26,266 nt of DNA from Ginkgo biloba (Eukaryota > Plantae > Ginkgophyta). The stretch lies in contig JANKJI020000002.1 of NCBI GenBank assembly GCA_024626585.2, forward strand, positions 235,066,854-235,093,119, read 5' to 3'. Made by a program: the position numbers and the translations under genes. Within the stretch, counting starts at the first letter, position 1, and each line of letters starts with the position of its first letter. This document shows positions 5,794 through 21,796 of the stretch, one piece after another. Below the pieces are notes generated by a model, which had not been told where the DNA came from, made no database searches, and saw only the letters and a list, made by a program, of their open reading frames with translations.

Positions 5794-5912
5794 AGTCACT
5801 GTTAAGCATGTNNNNNNNNNNNNNNNNNNNNNNNNNNNNNNNNNNNNNNNNNNNNNNNNNNNNNNNNNNNNNNNNNNNNNNNNNNNNNNNNNNNNNNNNN
5901 NNNNNNNNNNNT

Positions 5913-6340
5913 CTGGAGAAGTGCAATTTTGGTCAGCAAGAGTTGAAGTATTTTGGATTCATAGTGTCACACGAAGGTTTGAAGATGGATCAAGAGAAGG
6001 TCAAAGCAATGCTAGAGTGGCCGATACCTAGAAACATAACAAATATTCGAAGATTTTATGGCTTGACGAGATTCTATAGAAAGTTTATCCAAAATTTTGG
6101 CACGATCGAAACACCCATGATAGAATGCATCAAGGGAAAAACCTTTCAGTGGACAAGTGCAATGCATCCCAACTTTGAACTATTGAAATGATGGTTGGAA
6201 GCTCTAGTGTTGGCATTACCAAATTTCAACAAAGTCTTTGAGGTAGAGTGTGTCGCATCAAGAGTCAGAATCTATACAATGTTAAGTCAAGAAGGATGAC
6301 CAATGGCATAATTCAATGAGAAATTAAAGAAGGAAAAGAA
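5913..6340 (+). mobile_element. Ty3/Gypsy RT C-terminus, connection and RNase H start (chromovirus/CRM-like), pseudogenised
   Basis: LEKCNFGQQELKYFGFIVSHEGLKMDQEKVKAMLEWPIP...GLTRFYRKFIQNF, then LVLALPNFNKVFEVECVASRVRIYTMLSQEG*PMA*FNEKL (canonical LPDF-x-K-x-FEVECDAS-x-x-GIGAVLSQEG). Confidence 0.9.
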
Positions 6341-7562
6341 GTTAAAAAAACATTTAGGTTGGTCCTAAATGTAGTTTGCATTTTATTATGTAGAGTGTAG
6401 ATAGATCATCTTACTTAAAGAGTGAGGAAAGGGTGTATAAATATAAAAATCATGAAACAAGTGCACAAAAAGGGAAGTTTAGAGGTGATTCGTTCCTACA
6501 ATTTCTCAACCATTAGCCTTAAAAAAAACCTCTAATACATTTAAACACATAATCCAACAATAAACATATTAAACTTCTAATCATAACCATTATTTCATGA
6601 GGCAAAAAAACCATATAGAGAATAATTGGATTTGGAATGGGATTCGAATCTCCCTTAAAATTTTCATTTAAAGAACCAAAATGATATGTTAAATATAAAT
6701 ATACTAGAGGAAGGGGAATAAATTAGGGGGATTATCCCTATGGAATCCAGATTGATGACCTCTCCACTTCCTTCCTTGAATATGTGATATATACAAATCT
6801 AATATCCTCCATATTACTTACTTCATTTCTAAATTAGATTAGATAAAGCTAAGTATATCACCATAACATCTCCCTTAAATTTAAACCATTAGAGTTTCAT
6901 TACTTGTAATTTCTCCTCGATTTTAAAAAAATCCTTTGTATTAATAACTTGATGATTTATGTGAAGAGGTCATATCCTTCTATAGGAGATATAGAAAGCT
7001 TATTGACCTTTAAATTCTCTTTGGATAAGAGGAGTTTCCTTCATGCATAAGAATAACCTCATCCCTCCATATACAAATAAGAAGTAACCATTATAACTTC
7101 CTAGTCCCTTTGCATAACAAGGAACTTTCTTTTAGTTAAGAGTTCAGAGAATTATTCAAATAAGAAATTCATTTTATTCATAAATTCATATTTACTTCAC
7201 TAAGGTTATTTTTTCACTATAGGTCAAATGTGAGTAAACTCATGAAGAAAATATTTTTCCTAAAGTATCATATGTAGACTATTCCATGTTTTCTCATAAG
7301 GANNNNNNNNNNNNNNNNNNNNNNNNNNNNNNNNNNNNNNNNNNNNNNNNNNNNNNNNNNNNNNNNNNNNNNNNNNNNNNNNNNNNNNNNNNNNNNNNNN
7401 NNTATGAGAATCTTTGTTAAGGTTGTCCAAATGGAAGCAGAAGATGATTGGATAAGAAAATATATTATTGAAAATACATATGAATTATCTAAAACTATAA
7501 TGCCATTACAACAATCAATGAGAAAATTGATCGTTAAGTCTCAAAAGGATAGATAATTTATA

Positions 7563-10283: not shown

Positions 10284-10560
10284 AACTTAAATCTCTATTA
10301 TCTTTGATGTCCTAAAAATATAAAATGATGGAAGATCTAAAACAAATTTCTAGGCTCAAATAAATAGTCCAAAAAATTATGACTTACATCTCCATTACCA
10401 CTGATTTCTTACAAATTTTGAAATGAGGGAAAATATAAAATAAGTCATCTAGATCAAAAAATAAATTCTCTAATAAAATTATAACTTACATCTCCATTAC
10501 CTCTAAGTTCTTAAGAAATATAAAATGAGGGAAAATATAAAATAAGTAAGCTAAGCTCAA
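10284..10560. repeat. Degenerate tandem repeat, about 100-bp unit, three copies
   Basis: Units begin aacttaaatctctatta (about 10285), gacttacatctccatta (10381) and aacttacatctccatta (10483). Copies 2 and 3 share aaatgagggaaaatataaaataagt exactly. Confidence 0.85.
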
Positions 10561-14079: not shown

Positions 14080-15076
14080 TCTCCTTTATTATCCATTTGA
14101 TCAACAAGTTGATTAGATTCTTTGAAAATATGGGAGATTTTCCACTCTTTAAAGTGCTTGAGTAGTTTGAGAGATTCCTCTATTAAGTTTGCTAAAATTT
14201 AATTGTCCAAATTCTATTTTCCATTTATGCAGGCCATTACCAATATTGAATCATCTTTTATGCTTATGGATTTTATCCCATTATCTAGAACTAACTCAAT
14301 ACCTATCCCTCTNNNNNNNNNNNNNNNNNNNNTGACTAGTCCCAAGCCTTCTACATATTCTAATTACTACTATTAGTGAGAGTGAAAAATCACTCCCTTT
14401 CCTCCCATAGTCCCAGGGTTACTTTTGGCATCTCCATTAAAAAATAGTAAAGGTGATATTTTGAATTCTTGAGTTGTAGTTATTTTCCTTGCTTTTGGTT
14501 TTTCAATGGTTATCTTGAGGTCAAAATATTTAAAGAGTATTATTGAGGAAGAATACAATGGGCCATATGAGATTAAGACTTAGGGATCTTGGGATGAGAT
14601 TTGTTCCTTTATTCTTTTAGTGATGTAAATCCATAAGGTAGGGTACATCACTTGTTAGTTCCTGAAGGATATATCATTTTGTGTTATCTATAAATGCCTC
14701 ATGATACACTAAGGTGTGAACTACCATAGTTATTTTATGATCACGTGCTTCTCCTTTAGGTGATCCTCTAGAAGTGTAAATAGATCCTTGACTAAGGTTG
14801 GAAGAAGGATATTTAATCTTAAAAGCATGCATAATTTTGACCATACCTCTTGAGATACTCTTCGTAGCAATAAAAGATCATGTATTGATTCCTTATCAAA
14901 ATTACACATATAGCAGATGTTGGGTCCTTGAAGTTCTCTCCTTTTTAGGTTATCCATGGTGAGTATAGACCAATGAGACACCATCCATAGTAATATTTTA
15001 AATTTGGGAATCAAGGGTGATTGTCAAATTCATACCAAATACTTATCATCTAGATTTGCATCTTGGTATTCTAAAT
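14080..15076 (-). mobile_element. L1-clade LINE ORF2 3' end: zf-RVT zinc-binding domain and RNase H, pseudogenised
   Basis: IPKFKILLWMVSHWSILTMDNLKRRELQGPNICYMCNFDKESIHDLL (zf-RVT), LFFNGDAKSNPGTMGGKGVI (cf. FDGA-x-KGNPG-x-AG-x-GGVI), then GIKSISIKDDSILV and LLKHFKEWKISHIF (plant RNase H C-terminal motifs). Confidence 0.85.
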
Positions 15077-16452: not shown

Positions 16453-16702
16453 CTTGATCAAGTATTTTGGAGTTTAGTTAACTTACATTAACTAGTATAT
16501 TTTCTCCAAATGAGATTGAGAGGATAAAGCGAAAGTAGTAGATTCAACACTCAAAGCAATAAATGAAATAATGATCCATGGGTTGAAATATGGTCTCAAG
16601 CTTCAATGATAGNNNNNNNNNNNNNNNNNNNNNNNNNNNNNNNNNNNNNNNCTAGTAGTACAAGTGGTGAGCCAAATGTTAACATTTGGTTTAATAATCT
16701 AG
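16453..16702 (+). pseudogene. Copy C: 3' part of the A3-protease fusion ORF, inverted relative to copies A and B
   Basis: Reads LDQVFWSLVN...SESSRFNTQSNK*NNDPWVEIWSQASM [39 N] SSTSGEPNVNIWFNNL, homologous to copy A GDQVNHFWKFLN...SSSRFNT*RSEQSIDPWVERWPQAS...TTSDEPFVNFWINNL. Confidence 0.8.
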
Positions 16703-16989
16703 AAGTGAGGTCTTATCCATACAAGTGGCATTCCACTTATGAGAATAATGTCTATCACTTTCACATATCATACTGGTTATAGACAAGTGTCTATACCTTT
16801 ATTACATCAAACCATAGTGCAACACTTTTAAATATATTTACAAGATACATATTTGTTAAACCTGTGGGTATGGACCCACCTATCTTTTGCTAATGTCTTT
16901 ATTCTATGCTTAATTGGTTATTTAGATAACCAACCATAACAAAATCAATCCCTTTGAGAGTGATTAAGTATATTATCCTATTCATTAGA

Positions 16990-18130
16990 TTAATATTTAT
17001 CAAGATCATCTTCATCAACATATCCTAGATTATTAATCCAAAAGTTAACAAATGGTTCATCACTTGTAGTGTTATAACTACTACTTTATGGACAAATCCA
17101 ACCATCATGTTGTCAATCTTTAACTGAAGCTTGAGGCCATCTTTCAACCCATGGATCAATACTCTGTTCACTTCTCTAAGTGTTGAATCTGCTACTGCTA
17201 CTACTTATTGACATAATTCTATTTTTTGAACTTTCTTCATCATTATTTAGAAATTTCCAAAAATGATTCACTTGATCTCCTAACATTAATATATGGATCT
17301 AATGATTAGTAACATTGTTAATAATAACCCTGGAAATATTTTCAAAGATGATTTTATGGATATATCAAAAATAAGTTGTTTCAACAAGTTNNNNNNNNNN
17401 NNNNNNNNNNNNNNNNNNNNNNNNNNNNNNNNNNNNNNGCAGATAGTATGATTTGCTTGTCTAAATTGAGGACTCCTCCCATTGTAATAGAATTATAATC
17501 TACTAACCAATGTAGACCATAATAGAATTTTAATAAATAGATATTCCTTAAAATTCCATTCTACAAATACATCTACTAGTAACATCATTGATTTAGGATT
17601 TTTAATAGAACACATGACCTAGATCACCATACTTATCAGAACTCATCCTTCTCCATNNNNNNNNNNNNNNNNNNNNNNNNNNNNNNNNNNNNNNNNNNNN
17701 NNNNNNNNNNNNNTAAACAAATAAGTCAAATAATAAAACCATAATTCAATTATGCTTGTAAGTAAGAACCTCTTTTTGAGGGGGAGTGGAATATCATACC
17801 ATGAAGTCTCTATCTCATTAGATTTCATCATGTAATAATGGGTGTCTGTCTCAAAACCATCCCTATGGACATTGTCAAGGATATCATGAGTTTCTACAGA
17901 TTTTTGTTTACTCTTTATATAGAATGATTAGAGATCCTCCAACTAGTCTTCTTCTTTCCCTTTTTGTCTATTGTAGTAGGATCATCGTAGATCTTCTATC
18001 CATACTACTTGATTATTCTTCCTAGGGTTATTTTGAATAAATATAGCTCTTGGAATATTTGTATTATTCATATGGATATAATCTCTACCAAATTCCAAGG
18101 GATCATATTTATCCAGAAATGGCATACCAA
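16990..18130 (-). pseudogene. Copy A: decayed ORF, C-terminal end of a caulimovirid-type protease plus unknown domain
   Basis: Colinear with 19033-20158. Reads GMPFLDKYDPLEFGRDYIHMN...DILDNVHRDGFETDTHYYMM...SWYDIP...DKYGDLGHVF...MMLLVDVFVEWNFKEYLF...FWINNLGYVDEDDLDKY*. Homology to copy B stops at 18130. Confidence 0.8.
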
Positions 18131-18412
18131 GCCTCCAAGGGTGTGGTGTAATAGTTGTAGCTTTGGGTTGATACCCACCATACTGAGGTTTCATTCCCCT
18201 CATTTCACCCCCCTGAGGCATGGGGGAATCATAGTGAGGTATGGGGNNNNNNNNNNNNNNNNNNNNNNNNNNNNNNNNNNNNNNNNNNNNNNNNNNNNNN
18301 NNNNNNNNNNNNNNNNNNNNNNNNNNNNNNNNNNNNNNNNNNNNNNCATTATGTGTGGGATGTCAATTCCTTACCCTAAGATGTGATGCATACCTTTCCC
18401 CAAGTAAATATT

Positions 18413-18421
18413 AATGGGGGG
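18413..18421 (+). other. Polypurine tract (PPT) of an LTR retrotransposon
   Basis: aatgggggg immediately precedes TGTTAG. It is preceded by IMCGMSIPYPKM*, which may be the end of a Copia RNase H. Confidence 0.7.
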
Positions 18422-18980
18422 TGTTAGAATGATTAATATTTACTTATTTAAATATTGTGGACACCTTTAGTAAACAACATGTGGCTTCATTCAATTTCAA
18501 GTGTTGAGATATAAGTATCCCACACTCATGTTGAATTATGAGAAAGCCCTACCTCTACAAATATAAATAGAGGTGTATAGAGGCATATGAAAGAGATGAA
18601 GGATAAAATCATGATCAAGAGACAATTGATCCATTACTAATGATGTTGAGATTATTATCATGAGAGATTGATAGATATATTGAGAAGATACATACCATAT
18701 TATGTGATATAAGAGATTGTCAAAGAGGATACATATCATATTGTGTGATATGAGATCAAGATTGAAAATAATAAAGGATTATTTATTGGTGGAGTTTTCT
18801 ACCCTATGAGGGTTTCTCCACATAAATATGTGTCTATCTCTTTCTTTGACTTATTGTGATTCTTTCATGTANNNNNNNNNNNNNNNNNNNNNNNNNNNNN
18901 NNNNNNNNNNNNNNNNNNNNNNNNNNNNNNNNNNNTTCTCACATGCTATCAAAGCCATAGTTTCTTCTATAATTTTATCA
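18422..18980 (+). mobile_element. Long terminal repeat (about 560 bp including a 64-N gap), Copia-like
   Basis: Begins TGTTAGAAT and ends ATTTTATCA (imperfect terminal inverted repeat). Contains a TATA-like cctctacaaatataaatagagg (18552-18573) and a U5-like ggagttttctaccctatgagggtttctccac. Flanked by a PPT and a PBS. Confidence 0.8.
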
Positions 18981-19035
18981 TGGTATCAGAGAATTATAAT
19001 TTTAACATGGTATAAGAGAAATTATAATTTTATCA
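18968..19035. repeat. 27-28 bp tandem repeat of LTR end plus PBS (2.5 copies)
   Basis: tataattttatca-tggtatcagag-aat / tataattttaaca-tggtataagag-aaat / tataattttatca. Confidence 0.9.
18981..18991 (+). promoter_or_regulatory. Primer binding site complementary to initiator tRNA-Met
   Basis: TGGTATCAGAG directly after the LTR-terminal CA; this is the standard plant tRNAiMet PBS (TGGTATCAGAGC). Confidence 0.85.
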
Positions 19036-20520
19036 AGATTTATCATTATCAAAATCATCTTCATCAACATCTTTTGGATTATTAATCCAAAATTTAATGA
19101 CTAGCTCCTCACTTATACTACTAGAATTGCTACTTGACGGATAGATCCAACCATCGTATTTTTGATATGTCATTGAAGCTTAAGACTATATTTCAATCCA
19201 TGGATTAATACTTCATTCACTAATCTAAGTGTTGAATTTTCTACTACTACTTCTTATTGAGATACTTCTATTCCCTGAGCTTTCTTTATCATTATTTGGA
19301 AAATTCCAAAAATGATCTACTTGATGTCTTAACATTAAAATTTGGATTTTATGATTACTAAAATTATTAGTAATAACTTTGGACAGATTTTCAAATATGA
19401 TTTTATGGATATATCAAAAATAATTTGTTCCAACAAGTTCATACAATAACAACATCAACCATTATGATTTGAAGAAGATAATAAGATTTCTTGTCCAAAT
19501 TGAGGACTCCTTCAATTATAACATAATTCCAATCTACTAACCAATGTAGACCATAACTAAATTTTAAAAAATAGATAGTCCTTAAAATTCCATTCAGCAA
19601 ATACATCTACTAGTAACATCATCAATTTAGGATTTTCAATAATAAACACATGACCTGAATCACCATACTTATCATAACTTATTTTTATCCATATTTATTC
19701 CAATTGCCTTGTAATGGTGATTCTTATTTCATAATCTGCATCTTTAAACAAAGAGGTCAAATGATAAAACCATAATTTAATTCTACTTAGAAGTAAGAAC
19801 CCCATTCTAAGGGAGACTGGAAGATCGTACCATGAATTTTCTGTCTCCTCAGAAGTCATCATGTAACAATGGGTGTTTGTATCAAAACCATCCTTATGGA
19901 CATTGTCAAGGATATCTTGAGTTTATGCGTTTTTCTATTTTCCATTTATATAGAATGATTGGAGATCCTCCAACCATTCTTTTTCTTTTTCTTTCTTTCT
20001 GTCATAATAGGATTGCAGATCTTTGATCCATACTATCTAACTATTCTTCCTAGGGTTAGTTTGAATAAACCCAACTCTTGGAATCCTTTCATTATTCATC
20101 CAGATATAATCTCTTCCAAATTCCAAGGGACCGTATTTATCCAAAAATGGCATACCAATTAGAAAATCTATACTACTTTTGTCAAACTGATAAATATCTA
20201 TATTACACTCTAAGTTACCTATATTTATACAAAACTTGGGATCATACTTCATAATATAGAATTGTTGTCCACTGATGCCTCTCCTAGATTCTACTGGTAA
20301 TGCTTTTGACTTTACCAAAGTAGCATTGATATTAATATCAATGTATGCATATAGGTTGTATAATTTATATTCTTCTAGAATCAATGTGACTTTGATATAC
20401 ACACTACTATTCACACTCAGTACATTATTAATGTATGTTCTATCTTTAGCAAAAGAAAAGTGAATAGGAATTTAATAATTGAACTACTATTAGTCTCTGA
20501 CTTTGGAAACTTAATATGTA
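19033..20520 (-). pseudogene. Copy B: decayed ORF encoding a Caulimoviridae-type (peptidase A3) aspartic protease fused to an unknown region of about 350 aa
   Basis: NSSVYIKVTLILEEYKLYNLYAYIDININATLVKSKALP...IYQFDKSSIDFLIGMPFLDKYGP aligns by eye with caulimovirid proteases (NSIYIK...L-x-x-x-VDTGA...YQ-x-x-x-x-IDFIIG, LLGMPFL). The frame continues through scattered stops and at least one frameshift to ...FWINNPKDVDEDDFDNDKS** with no RT motifs. Confidence 0.75.
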
Positions 20521-20537
20521 TATATAGCTTATTTACA

Positions 20538-20650
20538 ATGGTCTACTTCAATTATGCTTTAATGTATAATATATTAATTATTTATGGTCTACTTTAATTA
20601 TGCTTTAATGCATAATGTATAGAAACAAATTACGCTTTAATGTATAATGT
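20538..20650. repeat. Short direct repeats at the junction with Copia pol
   Basis: atggtctacttcaattatgctttaatgtataat (20538-20570), atggtctactttaattatgctttaatgcataat (20584-20616) and aattacgctttaatgtataat (20628-20648). Confidence 0.9.
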
Positions 20651-21796
20651 ACTAAGCATGTATGAACTAGTGTCATTCAAAGAAGCTAAAGATTCAATTC
20701 AAAGGCAAAAATCCATGAAGGATGAGTAAGACTCTATCCTTAAGAATGACACTCACGATTTTCTTGAAGTGCCTTCAAATAAAAAGACCATTAGTTGCAA
20801 ATGGATTTACAAAGTTAAGTATTGATCTAATGGTTATATTGATAGGTACAAAGCTTGACTTGTGGCCAAAGGTTATGCTCAAGTTGCAGGTGTTGATTTT
20901 AAGCAAACATTTGCACCTATGGAAAATATGCCAACTATCCAAATGTTGATTAATCTTACATCTCAATTTGGATGGGAACTTCACCAAATGGATGTTAAGA
21001 GTGCTTTTCTTCACAACATTCTTTATGAGGAGGTCTACATGGAGTTGCTCAAAGGTTCTATCTAAGTTAGAAAGGAGCATCTTATCTACAAGTTGAAGAA
21101 ATATCTATATGGCCTCAAGCAAGCACCAAGGGTGTGGTATTCATGCATTGATGATTACTTCATTTCTTATAAATTCACTAGATGTGAATTTGGCCATAGC
21201 TTGTATGTAAAATATGAGGATGGTGAAATACTTGTAATTGTATTATATGTTGATGATCTCATCATTACAGGTAGTGACACTTCAAAAACCAACTCTCTCA
21301 AAAAGCAACTTTATAAATCTTTTAAGATGTCTCATCTTGGTCTTATGCACTATTATCTTGGGATGAAAATTTGACAAAAGAGTGATAACATCTTTGTATC
21401 TCAATCTAAATATGCATATAGTCTATTGTGACATTTTCATATGGAGGATGTTAATCCTATGGCTACTCCTATGGAAGTAGGTGTCAAACTAACTAAGGAT
21501 GCAAATGGTAGAATTATTGATGCTACATTATATAGATAGTTAGTGAGAAATCTAATTTATTTGACTACCACTAGTCCTAACATTAATTATGTTGTTGGTG
21601 GTGTGTCTTGATTTATGAGTGCCCCATCCATCTCTCATTAGAAATTTGCAAAGATTATACTCAGATATGTGAAAGGCATTATCATATTTGGACTCTTGTT
21701 CTCTACTTATGATGAGTTTAAACTAAGAGGCTTCATAAATTTAGATTGGGATGGAGACATTAATGAGAGAAAATCTACATTAGGATATATTTTTAT
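20628..21796 (+). mobile_element. Ty1/Copia reverse transcriptase and start of RNase H, pseudogenised
   Basis: NYALMYNVLSMYELVSFKEAK...CKWIYKVK...YKA*LVAKGYAQVAGVDF...HQMDVKSAFL...LYGLKQAPRVWY...LYVDDLIITG...LRGFINLDWDGDINERKSTLGYIF, with many in-frame stops. Confidence 0.95.

What the first reader, a model, noticed from the sequence alone, without database searches (positions are those of the whole stretch)
16453..20520. Multicopy ORF: caulimovirid-type A3 protease fused to an unrecognised domain instead of RT
Seen: three diverged copies (A 16990-18130 minus, B 19033-20520 minus, C 16453-16702 plus) keep the same reading frame over long stretches. Most stops are private to one copy and lie opposite sense codons in the other (B KNS*IVW vs A KNNQVVW; A ED*LEDL*SF vs B EWLEDLQSF; B IEI*S*AS vs A VERWPQAS). 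The shared NT* is NTQ in copy C. Known: in Caulimoviridae the protease is directly followed by RT-RNase H. Here about 350 codons follow with no YxDD or other RT motif and end in a Ser-rich, acidic tail. Inference: the ancestor was an intact ORF of about 500 aa or more, carried by a repeated mobile element that uses a virus-type protease in a non-canonical architecture. It could be a retroelement accessory gene, or a satellite or second component of an endogenous pararetrovirus. I do not recognise it, but cannot confirm it is undescribed.
Basis: partly seen in the sequence, partly recalled or inferred. Interest (0 to 1): 0.8.

Follow-up and report, generated by a model that had tools for sequence, protein, structure and literature searches.

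The report
RT-less pararetrovirus fossil, likely Ginkgo
These are broken copies of a repeated plant-virus-type gene, likely in the Ginkgo genome, in which a cauliflower-mosaic-virus-type protease runs into an unknown domain instead of reverse transcriptase; it likely comes from a helper-dependent virus component, a layout already known from grape and rice but not found in print for gymnosperms.

Summary
Observation largely confirmed. Copies A and B are about 80% identical; C is an inverted 3' piece. B carries a full-length Peptidase_A3 domain, followed by about 380 codons with no RT, RNase H, Pfam or PDB match. One ancestral frame is supported: 2 shared stops in 341 codons against 14-43 in the other five frames. 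Corrections: B needs a one-base frameshift near 19486-19489; the ORF ends at 16918 in A, beyond the acidic tail; A-B divergence is near neutral (dN/dS 0.68, 95% 0.48-1.05). The only relatives of the unknown domain are two Ginkgo biloba gene models, and both link it to a capsid-type zinc-knuckle remnant upstream. The other 16 hits match at the protease (15 Pfam A3, none gypsy-type). Read data show a dispersed multicopy family. Best reading: dead endogenous copies of an RT-less caulimovirid component, (MP?)-CP-AP-X. This layout is published for florendovirus component B and the rice SFKTE viruses, so it is not categorically new. The gymnosperm host and orphan domain appear unreported in my searches. 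Movement protein, partner virus and homology of X to ORF2/SFKTE could not be tested.

The parts
20097..20471 (-). Copy B: full-length A3 (caulimovirid-type) aspartic protease domain; catalytic Asp retained, the next two residues depart from the motif of the relatives
   Evidence: Pfam PF02160 21.4 bits; AP-RT-RH profile hits 20435-20097 only, iE 1.8e-12; 62% to Gb_17447, 22-33% to 16 other proteases
19036..20096 (-). Copy B: unknown domain X in place of RT-RH; in-frame stops, one-base frameshift near 19486-19489, 3' end cut at a repeat junction
   Evidence: frameshift also seen against other copies; no Pfam hit above cut-off
16918..18131 (-). Copy A: last third of the protease plus domain X through the likely true stop (16920-16918); two N gaps, in-frame stops, small indels
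   Evidence: tblastn of Gb_17447 E 2e-39 and 5e-19; Gb_09327 match to 16924, E 9e-12, and stop positions
16707..16917 (-). Likely 3' non-coding flank (intergenic region) of the element behind copy A
   Evidence: a contig of another copy covers 16707-17258 with 90 differences (table 8); no tblastn match of 25 fetched proteins here; IGR role inferred
16528..16704 (+). Copy C: inverted fragment of the tail of X, with an N gap; weak extension to about 16453
   Evidence: tblastn E 4e-5; alignments
18422..18991 (+). Neighbour, not part of the element: likely high-copy LTR (TG..CA, 18422-18980) followed by a tRNA-Met primer site at 18981, on the strand opposite to the ORF
   Evidence: sequence, motif at 18981, contig depth up to 186,000; LTR boundaries read by eye
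18968..19035 (.). 27-bp tandem repeat (2.5 copies) at the junction between the primer site and the cut 3' end of B
   Evidence: TRF, sequence
20538..20677 (.). Short AT-rich direct repeats at the junction between the 5' end of B and a Copia fragment
   Evidence: families D6, D9
20745..21476 (+). Neighbour: Ty1/copia reverse transcriptase, opposite strand, not the missing RT
   Evidence: Pfam RVT_2 E 1e-67

Best explanation
A, B and C are broken copies of one gene in which an A3 protease is followed by an unknown domain X instead of RT, and they likely are endogenous fossils of an RT-less caulimovirid genome component, likely of Ginkgo, that would have relied on a partner virus for reverse transcription. 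Shown: protease type, absence of RT, a once-open frame of about 500 codons from the protease start, multicopy decay, and two Ginkgo gene models that put a zinc-knuckle remnant upstream. Inferred: the ancestral polyprotein was (MP)-CP-AP-X; the protease released capsid and X; an RT-RH-bearing caulimovirid in the same host copied the RNA in trans; X (about 380 aa) is an ORF2-type accessory protein brought next to the protease by loss of RT-RH, most likely acting in transmission or counter-defence; the DNA entered the chromosome by break repair and then decayed under methylation.
For: Protease: 16 of 17 non-self hits in 1.84 billion representatives match at the protease; 15 of 16 have Peptidase_A3 as top family, and some carry MP, caulimovirus coat or RT domains; none is gypsy-type. 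No RT. One frame; Gb_17447 and Gb_09327 both match the tail in the frame reached after B's frameshift. Capsid upstream: Gb_09327 starts with a degenerate knuckle that aligns to the CCHC knuckle of caulimovirid P0019 (9 of 17, E 8e-4 pairwise); Gb_17447 residues 15-29 allow a CCHC knuckle in another frame, as do 2 of 300 shuffles; the two models share a further upstream stretch. The protease-X join is collinear in B and in Gb_17447, which are only 54% identical. Multicopy: over B alone 325 and 238 contigs were laid in two DNA runs, 272 and 202 of them under 95% alike. Decay: CpG o/e 0.17 and 0.04. Precedent: PMC4241990, PMC5491270. RT-bearing caulimovirids exist in Ginkgo (10.1101/170415, PMC13308828).
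Against: No movement protein, coat domain, own primer site or caulimovirid RT in the window (84 frame segments scanned), so 'viral genome component' rests on the protease and two spliced gene models. No partner and no shared intergenic region were shown. X has no detectable relative outside Ginkgo, so the ORF2 link is analogy only. dN/dS A-B is 0.68 (0.48-1.05), off-frame controls 0.79 and 0.83: no clear selection between these copies. The protease tree is unresolved around B and has no gypsy outgroup. B and Gb_17447 both depart from the usual catalytic motif. The RT-exclusion profiles are shallow (Neff 1.2-1.5) and the profile found the Copia RT only at iE 0.04.
Confidence: 0.6

Rival explanations
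1. The ORF belongs to a complete, single-component caulimovirid with two proteases (Wendovirus-like), whose AP-RT-RH lies in a separate ORF not present in these fragments.
For: Wendoviruses have two protease ORFs (PMC9794742, passages). All three copies are fragments; only about 210 nt are seen behind the stop in A. The departure from the catalytic motif in B and Gb_17447 would suit a spare protease.
Against: In Wendovirus the first protease follows MP and directly precedes the pol ORF; here it follows a knuckle remnant and is followed by about 380 codons of X and a non-coding stretch with no match to fetched pol proteins.
Confidence: 0.15
2. An ordinary endogenous caulimovirid lost RT-RH by deletion after integration, and the deleted form was spread passively by duplications; it never replicated as a separate component.
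For: Near-neutral A-B divergence; tandem and inverted fragments side by side; no partner shown.
Against: The in-frame protease-X join is the same in copies that are only 54% identical in protein; many dispersed diverged contigs cover the join; A and B have unrelated flanks on both sides.
Confidence: 0.13
3. It is an accessory ORF of an LTR retrotransposon or a non-autonomous LTR element that captured a viral protease.
For: B lies between an LTR with primer site and a Copia RT. Knuckle-protease order also fits gag-protease.
Against: B is antisense to both, is cut short at that junction, and A runs on past the same point into other sequence. LTR depth exceeds element depth by orders of magnitude. 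No integrase or gypsy-type protease hit.
Confidence: 0.09
4. It is a domesticated host gene family derived from a viral protease.
For: Two Ginkgo gene models exist.
Against: All window copies are broken; both models skip large parts of the frame and look spliced around breaks (inferred); strong CpG loss; no relative in other plants.
Confidence: 0.03

Closest known systems
Florendovirus component B (VvinBV, VvinDV, OsatBV, SbicV; Geering et al. 2014, PMC4241990, passages read)
   Same: One polyprotein with CP and AP, RT missing, C-terminal extension of unknown function; ORF2 proteins are 45-58 kDa, X is about 380 aa; found only as endogenous copies.
   Different: Angiosperm hosts; MP, shared intergenic region and partner component are shown there, none here; extension is homologous to ORF2 there, untested here; protease here is not placed with florendoviruses.
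Non-autonomous grass pararetroviruses eRTBVL2 and ePVCVL with the SFKTE domain (Chen et al. 2017, PMC5491270, passages and section 6)
   Same: MP-CP-PR followed by an unknown domain instead of RT/RH, no RT remnant by HHpred, multicopy fragments in tandem and inverted clusters.
   Different: SFKTE is about 516 aa (1548 nt in their tables) and the name motif is absent from A and B; young copies versus heavily decayed ones; grass hosts.
Gymnosperm endogenous caulimovirids: Gymnendovirus 2 / GbilV, OTUs 9, 27-29, WolV1 (PMC5766536, 10.1101/170415, PMC13308828)
   Same: Caulimovirid fossils in Ginkgo and conifers; GbilV has a CCHC knuckle; WolV1 has a 568-aa ORF with no homologue.
   Different: All were found through RT and carry AP-RT-RH; this element has no RT behind the protease. 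Their sequences could not be compared.
Wendovirus (PMC9794742, passages)
   Same: A caulimovirid protease in an ORF without RT.
   Different: MP-AP ORF followed by an AP-RT-RH ORF in one genome; angiosperms.

Membership tests
Caulimoviridae (endogenous) | A3-type aspartic protease | tested here: met
   Pfam PF02160 for B and Gb_17447, E 8e-12; full-length alignment to 16 proteases
Caulimoviridae (endogenous) | Capsid protein with CCHC knuckle upstream of the protease | tested here: inconclusive
   Not in the window; degenerate or off-frame knuckle in two Ginkgo gene models of the family
Caulimoviridae (endogenous) | 30K movement protein | not testable with these tools
   Copies are cut 5' of the protease; no MP hit in the window; no host genome held
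Caulimoviridae (endogenous) | RT-RNase H after the protease (autonomous members) | tested here: not met
   so not an autonomous caulimovirid genome as seen here
Caulimoviridae (endogenous) | No integrase, no LTRs of its own | tested here: inconclusive
   No integrase hit; the adjacent LTR is antisense and not shared by A; element ends not seen
Caulimoviridae (endogenous) | tRNA-Met primer site on the coding strand | tested here: inconclusive
   The only site (18981) is on the opposite strand; the element's 5' part is absent
Florendovirus component B / SFKTE-type RT-less component | AP followed in frame by an unknown extension, RT absent | tested here: met
Florendovirus component B / SFKTE-type RT-less component | Extension homologous to florendovirus ORF2 or SFKTE | not testable with these tools
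   No such protein among the hits (query lacks about 110 codons of X); reference sequences not obtainable
Florendovirus component B / SFKTE-type RT-less component | Intergenic region nearly identical to that of an RT-bearing partner | not testable with these tools
   No genome. Bin 16688-16831 has about tenfold higher contig depth than the ORF, cause unknown
Ty3/gypsy or Ty1/copia pol | Protease followed by RT (gypsy) or integrase (copia) | tested here: not met

The most novel reading that the evidence does not exclude
An ancient gymnosperm caulimovirid had a split or helper-dependent genome, with an RT-less capsid-protease component fused to an accessory protein family unknown outside Ginkgo. 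This would be an independent and far older origin of the bipartite pararetrovirus layout, invisible to RT-based surveys, and possibly with a non-catalytic protease domain.
Probability: 0.4. Interest if true: 0.65.

Novelty: new variant of a known kind. Interest (0 to 1): 0.45.

Why it matters
Split or helper-dependent genomes are unknown among living caulimovirids and are reported only from fossils in a few flowering plants (grape, rice, sorghum, beet). A Ginkgo case would show that the same protease-plus-accessory-domain layout arose again in a gymnosperm lineage, and that RT-based surveys miss a class of fossils (CAULIFINDER reports lower sensitivity for component B, PMC9719215). It also flags Gb_17447 and Gb_09327 as likely virus-derived gene models, not host genes. 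The copies are dead, so the value is evolutionary.

Tried and rejected
Two coupled ORFs with an overlapping stop-start near 19335: considered, rejected because the Ginkgo proteins match the second frame upstream of that point and B has a frameshift near 19486-19489. Degenerate RT: hhalign probability 0.1 for both halves of X (shallow profiles). Folds: Gb_17447 alone pLDDT 34 and a 3-row alignment of X pLDDT 34; no fold search was run on them. PDB sequence searches: nothing under E 0.2; a weak retropepsin-like match at E 0.6 over the protease. Word-index searches: longer proteins 0 of 1608 candidates; X alignment 0 of 695. Metagenome contigs: 0 of 111 pattern matches confirmed. ESM Atlas gave no result. 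No host genome. Alignment A3 was mis-built (one wrong frame, non-overlapping pieces) and was not used for searches. Expression: no RNA holder listed; two RNA runs read at about 2% and 6% gave no read 95% alike or better; two guessed-RNA runs hold near-identical contigs at depth about 3 but may be DNA; none of this is evidence either way. Contig depth was not taken as copy number. Earlier findings of the scan: none relevant.
Full report
Observation. The window is AT-rich, gapped, repeat-filled DNA. Self-comparison finds A and B as direct copies about 2.03-2.05 kb apart (76% over 672 columns, 82% over 417) and C as an inverted piece. The stop-free stretch 20471-20040 of B hits Pfam Peptidase_A3 just above cut-off. 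A profile of six fetched caulimovirid protease-bearing proteins, some extending into RT-RH, hits only 20435-20097 convincingly (iE 1.8e-12; its other hit is the Copia RT at 0.04).

One frame. The A-B alignment shows a one-base offset near 19489, and contigs of other copies show a one-base difference from B at 19486 or 19489 in 5 of the 6 contig runs laid (the same genomic copies may recur between runs). Along the protease frame with this one change, 2 of 341 codons are stops in both copies, against 14-43 in the other five frames. A's frame crosses two N gaps and a small indel near 17600, so its continuity is inferred. Gb_09327 matches A down to 16924 and the next stop is 16920-16918, so the ORF was about 500 codons from the protease start and X about 380. 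B is cut about 25-30 codons short at a 27-bp tandem repeat. A and B diverged nearly neutrally: mismatches are flat over codon positions, dN/dS is 0.68 with bootstrap range 0.48-1.05 and off-frame controls of 0.79 and 0.83. CpG o/e is 0.17 in B and 0.04 in A. The copies are dead.

Relatives. A word-index search with B gave 1 hit among 1589 candidates, Ginkgo biloba gene model Gb_17447, which matches the protease and the next 130 or so residues (54%) and, after skipping about 110 codons, the tail of A, B and C. HMMER with Gb_17447 over 1.84 billion representatives gave 18 hits: itself, Ginkgo model Gb_09327 on the tail, and 16 at the protease. Of the 16, 15 have Peptidase_A3 as top family and 1 has no Pfam hit; named ones are from Persea, Taxus and Tanacetum, and some carry MP, coat or RT domains. 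The host is therefore likely Ginkgo (inferred; all 20 runs that hold the stretch are one coded organism). Identity to the 16 is 22-33%; the tree pairs B with Gb_17447 (86/84), leaves their position open and has no gypsy outgroup. B and Gb_17447 keep the catalytic Asp but both depart from the relatives at the next residue; whether this is ancestral or decay is open.

Upstream. The window copies are cut at or inside the protease. Gb_09327 begins with a degenerate knuckle that aligns to the CCHC knuckle of a caulimovirid coat-protease protein, then an acidic stretch. Gb_17447 residues 15-29 permit a CCHC knuckle in another frame; 2 of 300 shuffles of its first 112 residues do so. The two models share another short upstream stretch. 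So the family order is likely knuckle, protease, X. This rests on predicted, spliced gene models.

Domain X. No Pfam family above cut-off in 4 of 4 pieces, no PDB sequence match, no match to the AP-RT-RH profile, no relative outside Ginkgo, and folds of no use (pLDDT 34). These negatives are limited by shallow alignments.

Copy family and setting. Over B alone, two DNA runs gave 325 and 238 laid contigs, most under 95% alike; one 829-nt contig covers 19145-19971 with 138 differences. Six-frame Pfam scans of the window without its two large N blocks (84 segments) find only retrotransposon relics besides the protease. B lies antisense between a likely LTR with a tRNA-Met primer site (18981) and a Copia RT (20745-21476), with short tandem repeats at both junctions. 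A does not share these flanks. I read the junctions as break-repair joins (inference).

Mechanism. Most likely (0.6) the ancestor was an RT-less caulimovirid component: a (MP)-CP-AP-X polyprotein cut by its protease, supplying capsid and an accessory protein, and reverse-transcribed in trans by an RT-bearing partner. The partner, MP and the role of X are inferred. Rivals: second protease ORF of a complete virus (0.15), post-integration deletion spread passively (0.13), LTR-element accessory ORF (0.09), domesticated gene (0.03).

Known systems. Florendovirus component B encodes MP, CP and AP, lacks RT and has a C-terminal extension homologous to ORF2 (PMC4241990; passages; six supplements searched without sequence hits, one .doc unreadable). 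Rice eRTBVL2 and ePVCVL have the SFKTE domain instead of RT/RH (PMC5491270; passages, section 6, parts of supplements). Beet has a different split (10.1101/2020.12.02.407783; passages). Wendoviruses have two proteases (PMC9794742; passages; review PMC10377300, passages). Ginkgo holds RT-bearing caulimovirids: about 481 copies and GbilV with a CCHC knuckle (10.1101/170415; passages and section 7; supplements closed), Gymnendovirus 2 (PMC5766536; passages) and further OTUs; WolV1 has a 568-aa orphan ORF (PMC13308828; abstract, passages, legends). I found no report of an RT-less or bipartite caulimovirid in gymnosperms in three searches: ginkgo + pararetrovirus + protease (5 papers), gymnendovirus + bipartite (4 papers; the passages read concern florendoviruses) and ginkgo biloba + caulimovirid + non-autonomous (0). 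The closed GbilV supplement could show X to be part of a described genome.

Verdict. It works like component B, but membership is unproven: ORF2 homology, MP and a shared intergenic region were not testable. New variant of a known kind; interest 0.45.

Noticed in passing
window 18415-18991: The likely LTR has a G-run purine tract directly before its TG start and a tRNA-Met primer site directly after its CA end, as if shared between two tandem LTR elements (read by eye).
   Followed up: no
window 16688-16831: Contig depth is about tenfold that of the ORF in two runs (1804 and 1435); could be a non-coding region shared with a partner virus or an unrelated repeat.
   Followed up: no
window 18132-18246: High-copy repeat (depth 5,000-9,000) joined inside A's protease; Pro/Gly-rich frame, gag-like by recall only.
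   Followed up: no
window 14094-15029 (minus): Relic with zf-RVT and RVT_3 hits, LINE-type by recall.
   Followed up: no
window 5912-6341 (plus): Decayed RT end and RNase H fragment (RT_RNaseH_2, E 4e-5), gypsy-type by recall.
   Followed up: no
window 10314-10547: 102-bp tandem repeat, 2.3 copies.
   Followed up: no
P0003 / P0020 (Persea americana KAJ8619265.1, KAJ8619264.1): Gene models made of six or more tandem MP-CP-AP repeats with no RT hit in P0003; possibly a tandem array of another RT-less caulimovirid unit or a splicing artefact.
   Followed up: no
Gb_17447 and Gb_09327: Two annotated Ginkgo genes that are likely mis-predicted virus-derived fossils of this family.
   Followed up: partly
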